Shown here: positions 3,501 through 31,592 of the stretch, piece after piece
Layout of the letters: each line of letters starts with the position of its first letter
Numbering within the stretch: the stretch's first letter is position 1
Assembly (NCBI GenBank): GCA_964016885.1
Contig: OZ024743.1
Location: forward strand, 276,892,001 to 276,956,000
Source: Eledone cirrhosa
Lineage: Eukaryota
DNA: 64,000 bases
Reading direction: 5' to 3'
Translations under genes and position numbers: made by a program
The notes under the pieces: model-generated
What the model was told of the DNA's origin: nothing
Database searches by the model: none
The model's input: only the letters and a program-made list of their open reading frames with translations

Positions 3501-3690
3501 GGAAAAAGTATGACCCCGACGGCAGAGCTCAAGCCGTTTCAACGGTTATTTCTGGACAGAAATAGCCGTTGAAACGGCTTGAGCTCTGCCGTCGGGTTCA
3601 TACTTTTTCCTATTACCCACTCTACTACACTAAGTATTGAGTACTTTGGTGCGTTATGGTCCATCTGGTTCCTTACACAATTCCTTCGTT
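3501..3690 (+). mobile_element. Hairpin-plus-tail PLE-type mini-insert in (TA)n, family H1, copy A
   Basis: Palindrome 3501-3610 plus an 80-bp tail ending TTCCTTCGTT, with (TA)n on both sides. Contains GAAACGGC-loop-GCCGTC, the 3' half of an HHR. Confidence 0.8.
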
Positions 3691-5864
3691 ATATATATAT
3701 ATATATATATATATATATATATATATATATATATATATATAAATATATATATATAATACATATGTGTGTGTATATATATATATATATATATATATATATA
3801 TATATATATATATATATATACGTATGTATATATATATATATATATATATATACACACATACACACACACATATATAAATATATATATCAGTGTGTATGCG
3901 TATATGTATGTGCACATGTATGTATACGTGTGTACATAATGCTTCATTACAGATGATTTACACAATTGTGGAATGAGAAAATTCAGTCTAAATTTGTCCT
4001 TGTATTTGTTTTTATTTTCCATTTCTCTTTTCACCCCTCTCTCCCCTCTTTCTCCTCTCTCCCTTTCTCTTCCCCACCTCTCTCTCTTTTTCTTCCCCCT
4101 TTCTCTCTCCTTCTCTTCCCCAACCCTCTCTCCTTCTCTTCCCACCTCTCTCTCTCTCTCAATCTCTACCCCACCCCCTCTCTCTTCTTCTCATTCTCCC
4201 CTCTCTCACAATCACTTCCCTACTCCTCTCTCTCCTTCTCTTCCCCACCCCTCTCTCTCCTCTTCTCCCTCTTTCTCTCTCTGTGTCCTATCTCTTTGTC
4301 TTTCTCTCTCATGTTGTCCAATCACTCCCTAATTACTCTCTGCTGTCTCTTCATTAAATTCTCTATTATATCTCTATTTACTCACCCCACTCCTCCCTGT
4401 CTCATGCTATCGTTTCCCCCCCCCCCTCTCTCACTCTTACTCACTTCCTGTCACTACTTTCTCATTATGCACCTTATACTATTTTTGTATTTCATGCATT
4501 CATCTCTCTCCCTCCCTCTCTATCTCTATATGTGTATTATATATATATATATATATATATATATATATATACATATATATATATATATATATGTGTGTGT
4601 GTGTGTGTGTGTATAGTGCATATGTGTATGTATGCTTGAATGTATATATATGTATGTATGTAACTCTGTATGTATGTATGTATATATATATATATATATA
4701 TATATATATATATATATATATATATATATATATATATATATACATATACATATATATATATATACATATATATATATATACATATACATATATATATATA
4801 CATATATACATATATATATATATATACATATATATATATATATATATATATATGTAACTCTGTATATATATATATATACATATATACATATATATATATA
4901 CATATATATATATACATATATTTATGTATATATGTATATATATATATGTATATATGTATATATATATATGTATATATATATGTATATATATATATATGTA
5001 TATGTATATATATATATATATATATATATATATATATATATATATATATATATATATATATACAGAGTTACATACATACATACATACATACATAAATACA
5101 TAGATTACATACATACATACATGCATATATACATATATACATAAATAAATACATACATACATGCATACATACATACAAGCATACATACTACATACAAACA
5201 TACATACATACATACATACATACATACATACTACATACATATCAACTTTTTATATTTATCCGGCAGAATTTTAATTACTAGTTCGGCGTTTCCTTCACTT
5301 CCTATTGACAACGTTTTATTTTCAGCGTTGCCCATAAAATAAACTGCACGCTAACAATCCTATCCATACATAAGAGCAACAGATGTATGTATATATATAT
5401 ATATATATATATATATATATATATATATATATATATATATATATATATATATATATATATATATATATGTGTATAAATTAATATCATAGATCGACATAGA
5501 TAAGGAATCTATAGTCAGACAAACTGACAGAACCACAGGCAGTTGTGTGTGATCAACACTGTATGTATATTTAAAAAAAAATAAATAAATATATATATAT
5601 ATATAAATATATATATATATATATACATATATGTGTGTGTGTGTGTGTGTGTGTATATATATATCAGATTATCATTATATCAGCATATCAACTCTTATAC
5701 CATTATACCGTTATACCATTTAGTCATTTTAATGTAAACGTGATAATGATAGTGGTGGGGGTGGGTTTACTGGATATAGATTTGTACATGTGGTGCATCG
5801 TAGTACGTATGCATTACTATATATATATATATATATATATATATATATGTATATATATATATAT

Positions 5865-6055
5865 AACGAAGGAGTTGTGGTAAGGAACCAGATAGACCAT
5901 AACGCATCAGAGTACTCAATACTTAGGGTAGTAGAGTGGGTAATAGGAAAATGTATGACCCCGACGGCAGAGCTCAAGCTGTTTCGACGGCTATTTTAGT
6001 CCAGAAACACCCGTCGAAACGGCTTGAGCTCTGCTGTCGGAGTCATACATTTGCC
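5865..6055 (-). mobile_element. Family H1, copy B
   Basis: Reverse-oriented homologue of 3501-3690, flanked by (TA)n. Confidence 0.8.
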
Positions 6056-6317
6056 TATATATATATATATATATATATATATATATATATATATATATAT
6101 ATATATATATATATATATATACATATACACACACACACATATATATATATATATATATATATATATATATGTGTGTGTGTATATGTATATATATATATAT
6201 ATATATATATATATATATATATACATACACACACACACACACACATATATATATATATATATATATATATATATATATATATATATACACACACACACAC
6301 ACACACATATATATATA

Positions 6318-6730
6318 GATTAGAGCAAACATCACGGGCGCTCTATCTCAAAATTATTTTTGAAAAGCATTAGAAATGCGCAACCTGTAAAAACTTAAAA
6401 CTAAAACTGAATACTAACCAATACTATTACTAATTTATGGATTGGCAGTATCAGTAGAGGGTCGGACGCCATGCTTTCCAGCATAGTTACGTTCCTGTAC
6501 GATCTGAGTTCAAATCCCGCCGAAGTTGACTTTGCCTTTCATCCTTACGGGGTCGATAAAATAAAGTACCAGTAATGCACTGTCTAATTGCTGGCCTTGT
6601 GCCTAAAGTAGAAACAATTAATAATTTATACTTATTCCTAATTAAACTATTTTTCACTGGGAAAAATTTGTCAGCATTTTCTTTTCCTTTTTACTAATAT
6701 TTCACAACTCATGTGTCACACCTCTATTTT
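6318..6730 (+). mobile_element. PLE 3'-terminal fragment interrupted by a SINE
   Basis: Matches 18220-18440 on both sides of the SINE at 6438-6620. Flanked by (TA)n. Confidence 0.8.
6438..6620 (+). mobile_element. tRNA-derived SINE, family 2
   Basis: TGGCAGTATCAG A-box-like motif, GAGTTCAAATCC B-box and GACTTTGCCTTTCATCCTTACGGGGTCGATAAA core. Multi-copy in this window. Confidence 0.9.
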
Positions 6731-6767
6731 ATATATATATATATATATGTATATATATATATATATA

Positions 6768-7132
6768 TACGATGTGGTATCAAAATGTTCCAGGACTAGA
6801 CATGTTTAAAAAAGAAAAGAAACTAATATATTTACCTAGGTTTTAACATCACCTCCTTCGAATTAGTCACCTTGTGCAGCAATACACCGGTCACAGCGTT
6901 CCTGCCAATTTTGGAACCCGGCCTGGGATTTGCTCTGGATCACAGCAACGGTTGTAAAACGGCAACCTTTGAGCTCCAGTTTCAGCTTAGAGAAGAGATG
7001 GTCTAAATCTGGCGAATAGAGCAGATGCAGAAGCGATACAATGTTATTTATGGCGAGACACGTGCGAGTGAAGAGAGCTTGGTGACAGTGTGTATTGTCG
7101 TTTTGAAGAATCCAGTTCTTTGCGCTCCACAG
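6768..7132 (-). mobile_element. Mariner (Tc1/mariner) 3' fragment, decayed transposase C-terminus
   Basis: Minus-strand WILQNDN...YSPDL...LKGCRF...WQERCDRCIAAQGD, with a putative TIR starting TA-CGATGTGGTATCAAAA. Confidence 0.85.
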
Positions 7133-29424: not shown

Positions 29425-29452
29425 TAAAAAAAAAAAAAAATTTATTTGGTTC

Positions 29453-29488
29453 CTTTACCGGTTTCGCAGTTCTTCTGCTTTTCAAAAG
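29453..29488 (-). ncRNA. Minimal hammerhead motif, U3-A8 core variant
   Basis: CUU-UUGAAAA-GCAG(AAGAA)CUGC-GAAA-CCGGU-A-AAG. Confidence 0.65.
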
Positions 29489-30832
29489 TAGAGTTGAGAT
29501 GGAGGGTCTGTAGTTTTTCTCACATCTGGTTGGTCTTTGAATGTTACTTGTTCTATATGGAAAAAAGTGGCTCGAAACGCCAGGTTTTTAGAGAAGTAAT
29601 TTGATTGGTTGGTCAATAAGTATAATAAATTTCGCGCCAGTTCGCGTTACAAAGTTCTTCAAACAGGTGGGAGGGGGGGGGGGGGGGTCAGGTGTTGTTT
29701 TCATATATGAGTGTTTGAATTTATTTTTACTTAAAAAAAGGGGGCTCACGAAGGCTTTTTTTTTAATAAATGTAATTTGATTGGTTATAAATGAAATTAT
29801 AGTTGTCACGTGAACAAGTTCATTAAATTTCGTGCCCGTATTTGTGAATTTATTTTGTAGCCTTGTAGAGAATTTTATGACAAACAAAAGATAATGGTCA
29901 AGAGAAATGGGATGGGGGGAATTATTCTGGTTCAGTGAATATGGCAGGCTGTTTTTCATATATGAGTGAAGTTTGGTTGGTTGATGTAGTCACGTGAATA
30001 AGTATATCAGCTTTCACGTAAGTTTTTTGAATTTCTTTTTACTTTAAAAAAAGGTGGCTCACGAAGGCTTTTTTTTTAATAAATGTAATTTGATTGGTTA
30101 TAAATGAAATTATTCTGTCACGTGAACAAGTTCATTAAATTTCGCGCCTGTATTTGGGAATTTATTTTGTAGCCTTTTAGAGAATTTTATGACAAGCAAA
30201 AGATAATGGTCAAGAGAAATGGGATGGGAGAATTGTTCTGGTTCAGTGAATATGGGTGGTTCGCTGGGGTGTCAGAATTCAGATTTTCTATTGAGATAAA
30301 GAAAGTAGAGATATGTATGTTTATTTGTGTGCTTGTGTGTGTGTATAGGAAGATGATTCTATTAGTAGAAATGGGGGAGGGACCTGTGTGTGTATATGGG
30401 TGTTATGATGTGTGTGTGTGTCTGGGAGTATGTTAAGATGGAGAGAATATATATATTTTGTGTGTGTGTAGGAAAGTGATTCTATTAGTAGAAATGGAGG
30501 AGGGAGTTGTGTGTGTGGGGGGTGGGGGGGGGGGTGTTATGTGTGTGTGCATGGGTGTTATGTGTGTATGGGAGTATGGTTAGCATGTTAAGATGAAGAA
30601 AATATATATTTTGTGTGTGTTTGTAGGAAAATGATTCCGTTAGTAGGAATATTTTTGAATGAACATATTTTCCTTACTTATTCGTATTTGTTCTATTGTA
30701 TTGTCAGTGCAAACGTATGTTAAGGTTTATTTAGTACGGGTTTTTATTTTCTAAAGTAGAAGGTGTTATGTGTGTGTGTGTGTATGTGTCTGTTTGGATG
30801 GTTAGCATGTTATGGTGTTGACATAATGTATA

Positions 30833-31368
30833 TTAAACCATATTTAATGCTGGTCTATATTTTCGAATAAACATATTTTCCTTATTTATTCGTATTTGTT
30901 CTGTTGTATTGTCATCGCAAAGGTACAATGGGAAGACTTGGAATTTGGGTGTCTTATTACTTGCGCATATGTCTATACGTGTGCTTAGTGGTATCTGTCT
31001 TGTAGTTGGATCTCGTAATTGTTGGCGATGAACTGTCATTCTGTTTCTGAGTGTGAGTTTAGTTTCTCCTATATATATTCTTTATTGCATCCTTTACATT
31101 TAATGGCATAAATTAGATTTTTTGATGAGCAAGTGAAGTGATTTTTTACAGCAAAATTTTGTCCTGATTTAAATGTATACGTGTTGCCTTCAATGAGGTG
31201 AGTGCAGGTTCCACAATTAGAGCGCCCACATATTTTGACAGTTGGTTGTGGGTTTGTGGTAGGTAATTTGGCATTGGTGAGTAACGTTTTCAGTGATTTC
31301 GCTTGTCTTTTGCTTTTGATTATTTTGTGTGTTTCAAGGGCTTTTTTCACTCTTGGGTCTTGTTTCAG
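30833..31368 (-). pseudogene. PLE Cys linker plus GIY-YIG endonuclease (frameshifted)
   Basis: CGRSNCGTC..NLIYAIKCKGCNKEYI / GETKLTLRNRMTVHRQQ..KENMFIRKYRPALN. Clear paralogue of 16508-16910. Confidence 0.9.
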
Positions 31369-31396
31369 TATATATATATATATAATATATATATAT

Positions 31397-31592
31397 AACA
31401 AAGGAATTGTAGTAAGGAACCAGATGGACTATAACGCACCAGAGTACTCAATACTTAGGGTAGTAGAGTGGGAAATAGGAAAAAGTATGACCCCCGACGG
31501 CAGAGCTCAAGCCGTTTCGACGGCTATTTCTGGACTACCAGAAATAGCCGTCGAAACGGCTTGAGCTCTGCCGTCGGGGTCATACTTTCTCC
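31397..31592 (-). mobile_element. Family H1, copy D
   Basis: Homologue of 3501-3690 with a 4-nt loop ACTA. Confidence 0.8.

What the first reader, a model, noticed from the sequence alone, without database searches (positions are those of the whole stretch)
3501..31592. H1 palindromes: both arms of each copy share copy-private mutations
Seen: there are four copies (3501, 5865, 8436, 31397). Copy C has GGAACGAGTAGG..GGCTGAG in both arms where A and D have GGAAAAAGTATG..GGCAGAG. Copy A has GTTTCAAC/GTTGAAAC in both arms where the others have TCGA. Copy B has ATGTATG/CATACAT in both arms. The loops differ in every copy. Inference: this is not one pre-formed MITE being amplified. The second arm is rebuilt from the same template at each insertion, or homogenised later by arm-to-arm conversion.
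Basis: partly seen in the sequence, partly recalled or inferred. Interest (0 to 1): 0.75.

Follow-up and report, generated by a model that had tools for sequence, protein, structure and literature searches.

The report
Head-to-head Penelope stubs, subfamily-matched arms
These four 190-base hairpins are very short ends of a Penelope-type jumping gene, and their two arms match because each insertion was likely copied twice from the same source RNA; the matching variants are mostly subfamily markers found at many other places in the genome, not private mutations.

Summary
The four palindromes are real. They belong to a family of at least 13,260 palindromic loci. They are extreme 5'-truncated, head-to-head insertions of a Hydra-type Penelope-like element: longer copies with the same two ends carry RT and GIY-YIG coding sequence. 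'Copy-private' is mostly wrong. C's variants are in both arms of about 3,500 loci, and B's in 9 of 60 sampled palindromes and 12 of 27 single-arm copies. Only A's CpG change is rare (23 loci). Arms group by subfamily, not by side (58 of 60 concordant, 15.5 expected). Later mutations stay in one arm (203 one-arm against 6 mirrored), so arm-to-arm conversion is minor. Junctions differ even among near-identical young copies (14 distinct in 15), and either arm can be the longer one (28 against 33). This favours two separate priming events over fold-back or a preformed MITE. Two loci have arms from different subfamilies, a hint of two RNA templates. The layout is published, and this scan noted it before on other DNA of this genome.

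The parts
3501..3613 (+). Copy A palindrome: inverted tail-less arm, junction near 3554-3559, direct arm ending at the CCTAT site
3560..3599 (+). 3' half of the predicted hammerhead in copy A (stem II 3' strand, GAAA, stem III, GTC site ending at 3593, stem I 3' strand); the 5' core is lost by truncation
   Evidence: sequence compared with long copies; activity untested
3614..3690 (+). Copy A unpaired tail, up to the outer end in (TA)n
5943..6058 (-). Copy B palindrome (CATACAT subfamily; 6 arm mismatches)
5865..5942 (-). Copy B tail
8433..8542 (+). Copy C palindrome (CCTACTCG subfamily, about 3,500 loci with the block in both arms)
8543..8620 (+). Copy C tail
31475..31595 (-). Copy D palindrome (commonest haplotype; one-arm extra G and one-arm substitution)
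31397..31474 (-). Copy D tail

Best explanation
H1 is the 3' end of a Hydra-type Penelope-like retrotransposon, and each palindrome is likely one insertion in which both cut strands of a (TA)n target primed reverse transcription of the element's RNA, one from the outer start site (with tail) and one from the inner CCTAT site (no tail). Both cDNAs would stall early, mostly 7 to 13 nt upstream of the CCGTCGAAAC motif inside the predicted hammerhead stem-loop II, and be joined head to head by microhomology or end joining. The arms share subfamily alleles because they come from the same source element; afterwards each arm mutates on its own. Shown: parentage, fixed ends, subfamily concordance, one-arm decay, variable and symmetric junctions. 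Inferred: dual priming, the cause of the stall, the joining step.
For: Parent: L121 is a 4.65-kb insertion with the same two ends, a 443-aa RT frame and a GIY-YIG end; its arms are 94-95% identical. L216 shows tail, about 90 nt, then the ORF start. Homologues at 34-42% identity. Hydra motifs match the text and supplement of PMC8557442. Arms: within-locus 5.4% against between-locus 11.4%, left/left 11.3%, right/right 11.5% (100 loci). Subfamily block concordant in 58 of 60, 15.5 expected. 189 of 195 shared variants recur in 3 or more loci. Non-CpG arm-arm mismatch 7.3% against per-arm divergence 4.0% and 3.9% in sample 1. A 5-base C/G run is never in both arms (0 of 20 loci with a readable partner). 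Junctions: 61 distinct in 74; inverted arm longer in 28, tail arm longer in 33, equal in 13 (p=0.61); 37 overlap, 15 blunt, 22 with inserted bases. 14 distinct junctions in 15 loci of the youngest subfamily. In L124 the tail-less arm is about 1.3 kb and the tail arm 157 nt. In vitro, an anole PLE protein cleaves and extends both strands and has two RT start sites that bracket the tail (PMC11167929).
Against: Mirror sharing exceeds chance by a small amount: 23 loci against about 7 expected at A's CpG after a cross-mutation control (p about 3e-4), and 6 against 2.8 in the pooled sample (P=0.05). This fits variant donors but also rare conversion or fold-back copying. Some junctions recur (up to 3 of 74), and TGTACA is frequent in one subfamily (listing), which a hairpin master would also give. 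Central deletions after insertion could create the junction symmetry. In the long-arm tree 6 of 9 pairs are sisters, some with weak support; L228 and L088 are unresolved and L226 is split. No intact element or target-site duplication was identified, Rfam gave no hammerhead hit, and Pfam scans were blank.
Confidence: 0.8

Rival explanations
1. Fold-back (self-priming): one cDNA snaps back and copies itself, and the intermediate is resolved by the endonuclease. A self-priming model is proposed in PMC3846280.
For: It explains subfamily concordance and the small excess of mirrored rare variants. Palindromes at inverted junctions were read this way in PMC3846280.
Against: A fold-back copy cannot reach further upstream than its template, yet the tail-less arm is longer in 28 of 74 loci and by over 1 kb in L124. 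L226 and L281 have arms from different subfamilies.
Confidence: 0.1
2. Arms are homogenised after insertion by arm-to-arm conversion through hairpin or cruciform repair.
For: About threefold excess of mirror doubles at one CpG; single mirrored private changes such as L338.
Against: 478 one-arm against 23 two-arm loci at that site; 203 one-arm against 6 mirrored changes in 100 loci. Loci with the mirror double are no cleaner elsewhere (6.0% mismatch, 22 loci) than cross-double controls (6.4%, 9 loci). As the main cause it is excluded; short rare tracts are not.
Confidence: 0.04
3. A preformed hairpin master (MITE-like, or a non-autonomous palindromic RNA) was amplified, with loops altered later.
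For: Very high copy number of one size class; a recurrent perfect TGTACA centre in one subfamily.
Against: No side-specific clustering; a length continuum up to 4.65 kb with the same ends; 27 of 100 copies are single-armed and share the alleles; the youngest copies already differ in loop; no terminal inverted repeats, since the tail is on one side.
Confidence: 0.05
4. Long-read fold-back artefact.
For: Palindromes next to microsatellites are prone to assembly error; few short reads cross the junction base.
Against: Arms differ by about 5% and end at fixed sites. Illumina reads of other samples carry (TA)n plus the inverted arm at depth over 1,600, and 78 and 62 reads cover the junction base 3558, most with a sister junction letter. 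These reads come from the family, not from this locus alone.
Confidence: 0.01

Closest known systems
Hydra clade of C-terminal EN+ Penelope-like elements (Craig et al. 2021, PMC8557442; passages and supplement rows seen)
   Same: RW motif, DKT, CxCX5C linker, no CCHH in the endonuclease, CxxC and CxH motifs, about 3 kb, (TA)n targets, hammerhead near the 3' end, inverted 5'-truncated copy with one-sided tail.
   Different: A different family from Hydra-1_Obim (its printed protein and hammerhead differ); RLRWR in place of RWK; U3-A8 core with a long stem-loop II; tail about 78 nt against the 30-40 bp stated; most copies are about 190-nt stubs.
PAc (Poseidon of Anolis), in vitro mechanism (Frangieh et al. 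2024, PMC11167929; main text and part of methods read)
   Same: AT-rich target, both strands cleaved and extended, two RT start sites that define the tail, predicted dimer.
   Different: Different clade; the paper does not reconstitute or explain the head-to-head joint in the parts read.
Inverted pLTR units of Adineta vaga Penelope (Arkhipova et al. 2013, PMC3846280; passages seen)
   Same: Head-to-head inverted pLTR, tail on one side, palindrome at the junction.
   Different: Low copy number; interpreted as self-priming, which the junction symmetry here does not favour.
PLE hammerheads (Cervera and De la Pena 2014, PMC4209133; results and discussion read)
   Same: Type I layout, G10.1-C11.1 pair, palindromic loop III, U3-A8 core variant, pairs of motifs on opposite strands.
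   Different: Stem III is well formed and loop II carries an extra hairpin; H1 stubs lack the 5' core.
L1 twin priming (recalled, not checked by a call)
   Same: Second primer from the other target strand gives a 5' inversion.
   Different: In L1 the inverted part covers a different stretch of the RNA; here the same stretch is copied twice.

Membership tests
EN+ Penelope-like element | Single ORF with RT and C-terminal GIY-YIG endonuclease linked to this end | tested here: met
   L121, L213, L214, L217 carry RT and endonuclease pieces upstream of the H1 end; all copies seen are broken
EN+ Penelope-like element | pLTR from partial tandem: 3' end followed by ORF start | tested here: met
   L216: tail, about 90 nt, ATG
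EN+ Penelope-like element | Inverted 5'-truncated copy and one-sided tail | tested here: met
   60 of 100 sampled copies; long cases
EN+ Penelope-like element | Hammerhead motif in the pLTR | tested here: inconclusive
   Core TTGAMAA in 38 of 49 motif matches, three-helix fold z -2.25; no Rfam hit; cleavage untested
EN+ Penelope-like element | Target-site duplication | tested here: inconclusive
   Both flanks are (TA)n, so a duplication cannot be read
Hydra clade | DKT and RWK motifs | tested here: met
   SDKTGN and RLRWR in L213/L214 translations; RWR rather than RWK
Hydra clade | CxCX5C linker and no CCHH; CxxC and CxH near the end | tested here: met
   CNCPDRSMC, NVIYQCNVRTDTSKKAYIG, CNLC, CKH
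Hydra clade | Under about 3 kb, (TA)n insertion | tested here: met
   L214 ORF start to tail end about 3.0 kb; flanks
Hydra clade | Placement in an RT phylogeny with reference Hydra proteins | not tested
   Reference proteins seen only as supplement text; compared by eye
MITE | Terminal inverted repeats at both ends and uniform copies | tested here: not met
   One-sided tail, variable centre, single-arm and long copies

The most novel reading that the evidence does not exclude
Each head-to-head insertion is written by a protein dimer from two separate RNA molecules, usually from the same source element. L226 (30 arm differences; left arm follows the main group at 29, right arm shares 22 with another lineage) and L281 (a 3-base block of another subfamily in one arm) would be the rare cases with RNAs from two sources, and more than 13,000 natural palindromes would let the two-RNA rate be measured in vivo.
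Probability: 0.35. Interest if true: 0.55.

Novelty: new member of a known kind. Interest (0 to 1): 0.3.

Why it matters
The layout is known, but how Penelope-like elements make inverted insertions is not settled. This family gives a large natural sample. It says that arm identity is set at insertion, that short genomic palindromes of this size are barely homogenised afterwards, and that the junctions fit dual priming better than fold-back. For annotation, such stubs should be filed as Penelope ends and not as MITEs or microRNA-like hairpins.

Tried and rejected
Side-specific extra G: about two thirds of D's top hits showed five G in the tail arm only, which suggested a mark at the hammerhead site; an unbiased search found the run on either arm (12 tail arm, 18 other, of 30), so it was a selection effect. 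Neptune clade: my first reading, dropped after the motif check. Rfam: only microsatellite-driven hits below threshold among the 150 of 303 rows shown, none at threshold on five long loci. Pfam: no family for the RT frame or five homologues. Arm mismatch against tail divergence across loci: no correlation (rho -0.12, n=96), uninformative because tail subfamily alleles were not fully removed; the sample-2 tail rate has the same flaw and was not used. Haplotype parsers were faulty; one search replaces them. One-strand rows were fetched to look for chimeras: 9 of 10 C-type loci were displayed and all show single-base changes; of 6 rows of the other type one is L281, one is two neighbouring elements, three are single-base changes and one has two changes. 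Sequencing runs: no RNA holder listed. Literature: searches returned no paper that tests twin priming or arm sharing in Penelope-like elements; searches gave the papers cited; the library lacks most subscription papers. PMC13282606 and bioRxiv 10.64898/2026.07.22.740005 (passages seen) do not describe these stubs in the passages shown; their supplements were not seen.
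Full report
Observation. The four copies are present. Each is (TA)n, an inverted arm that starts at the CCTAT site, a short variable junction, the direct arm, a tail of about 78 nt, and (TA)n. They fold as long hairpins with z between -15.5 and -22.2.

Family size. A 31-nt tail word has 10,637 exact matches in the 3.0-Gb genome. A two-arm pattern has 13,260 loci; both are lower bounds. I fetched 99 of the first 100 listed tail matches and obtained 100 distinct copies: 60 palindromic, 27 with a direct arm only, 13 other. The host looks like an octopus from genome size and repeats; this is inference, and no tool named it.

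Parent. Several copies continue upstream of the usual 5' end. L121 holds a 4.65-kb insertion with the same two ends: a 1.9-kb inverted arm joined to a 2.75-kb direct arm with a 443-aa RT frame and a frameshifted GIY-YIG end. The frame has homologues of 790-943 aa at 34-42% identity; Pfam scans were blank. L213, L214 and L216 show the ORF start, and in L216 the tail is followed after about 90 nt by the ATG, a partial tandem. The motifs (DKT, RWR, CxCX5C, no CCHH, CxxC, CxH), the length and the (TA)n target fit the Hydra clade as defined in PMC8557442 (passages; supplement rows). No tree with references was built. Long copies hold a hammerhead-like motif with a U3-A8 core (TTGAMAA in 38 of 49 matches) and a three-helix fold. 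That core variant is described for Schistosoma PLEs (PMC4209133). Rfam did not detect it. H1 stubs are cut inside loop II and lack the 5' core.

Are the shared variants private? For C, no: 28 of the 29 other top hits carry the same block in both arms and the 29th carries another block in both arms. A genome-wide pattern gives 7,843 strand matches; 45 of the first 55 loci match on both strands, about 3,500 loci in all. For B, no: both arms in 9 of 60 palindromes, and 12 of 27 single-arm copies. For A, nearly: the CpG change is in both arms at 23 loci, in one arm at 478, in neither at 13,260. Independent hits predict 4.3. A control (a different change of the same CpG in the other arm: 15 seen, 9.3 expected) raises this to about 7. 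The excess is significant (p about 3e-4) but is about 0.1% of loci. So A's double has about a 30% chance of being coincidence and is otherwise from a variant donor or a rare conversion.

Locus, side or subfamily? In 100 palindromes (60 from the tail sample, 40 from the two-arm list) arms differ by 5.4% within a locus and 11.4% between loci; left/left is 11.3% and right/right 11.5%. The within-locus advantage lies in 13 diagnostic columns (5.0% against 27%), which I chose from the data; elsewhere it is 5.5% against 5.9%. Where both arms carry an exact subfamily block, 58 of 60 agree, 15.5 expected (95 loci parsed). Outside the diagnostic columns there are 203 one-arm mismatches and 6 mirrored variants, 2.8 expected by permutation (P=0.05). 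Loci with A's mirror double have 6.0% mismatch elsewhere, controls 6.4%, so there are no long conversion tracts. A five-base run appears in either arm but not in both (0 of 20 readable; one partner has six). In a 295-nt tree of long arms, 6 of 9 pairs are sisters, 2 are unresolved and 1 is split (a tenth pair, L125, is two separate insertions and was set aside).

Junctions. 74 parsed junctions give 61 distinct sequences; reach upstream peaks at 7 and 12-13 nt for both arms; the inverted arm is longer in 28, the tail arm in 33, equal in 13; half overlap by microhomology and 22 have inserted bases. The youngest subfamily has 14 distinct junctions in 15 loci. A fold-back copy of the tail-bearing strand cannot be the longer arm, so these data favour two cDNAs, unless later central deletions are common. 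One subfamily often has a perfect TGTACA centre, which microhomology at a self-complementary end explains but a master would too.

Chimeras. L226 has standard ends and a direct joint without (TA)n. Its arms differ at 30 sites; the left follows the main group at 29 and the right shares 22 with another lineage. L281 has a 3-base block of another subfamily in one arm. Two RNA templates explain these; so do deletion between two neighbours or ectopic conversion. They are rare: 1 of 9 long pairs, 1 of 52 and 0 of 54 displayed short loci in the two targeted lists.

Artefact check. Illumina reads of other samples cover (TA)n plus the inverted arm, and 78 and 62 reads cover the junction base of copy A's frame. 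They stand for the family, not for this locus.

Mechanism. PMC11167929 shows that a PLE protein cuts AT-rich DNA on both strands, extends both, and starts at two RNA sites that bracket the tail. The anatomy here fits one start per strand, early stalling and head-to-head joining. PMC3846280 proposed self-priming instead. Parentage, ends, concordance and decay are shown; priming, stalling and joining are inferred.

Verdict. A real feature and a new family of a known kind. Earlier notes of this scan report the same layout in this genome and mixed-arm insertions in others; they are unchecked leads, and the Hydra lead came from them.

Noticed in passing
window 15020-18410: A second Penelope-like family with 409-nt inverted arms (98%) around an RT-thumb and GIY-YIG fragment on the minus strand (LIYVLTCSGCREQYIG, a CCHH type, so not Hydra). 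A short end of the same family lies at about 6318-6700.
   Followed up: partly
window 27649-28881: 331-nt inverted arms (97%) around a 571-nt spacer; possibly another PLE end or a non-autonomous element.
   Followed up: no
window 34000-40700: About 6.5 kb of irregular (CAA/CCA/CAC) repeats with almost no G or T on the plus strand, followed by (CTT)n and (CAT)n runs and a 200-N gap at 41424-41623.
   Followed up: no
window 46337 (+) and 12561 (-): Hammerhead-like cores (CTGATGA...GAAAC) of other repeat families.
   Followed up: no
long copies, e.g. L121 9048-9066: The 5' truncation hotspot sits at CTAAT...TTTAG|TCC, which resembles a branch point and splice acceptor and is also the 3' strand of the apical hairpin in predicted loop II; either could set the uniform stub length.
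   Followed up: partly
L335 and L337: Two loci of one subfamily share the same one-base change in the tail arm only; coincidence, or a minor template used for one arm.
   Followed up: no
L088, L061, L227: Insertions with an extra inverted internal piece of the element between the two arms, suggesting template jumps before joining.
   Followed up: no
L059, L015, L217: Copies in which the inverted arm also carries all or part of the tail, so both start sites can be used on either side.
   Followed up: no
L106, just upstream of the H1 copy: A palindromic stub of another family with a canonical CTGATGA hammerhead core.
   Followed up: no
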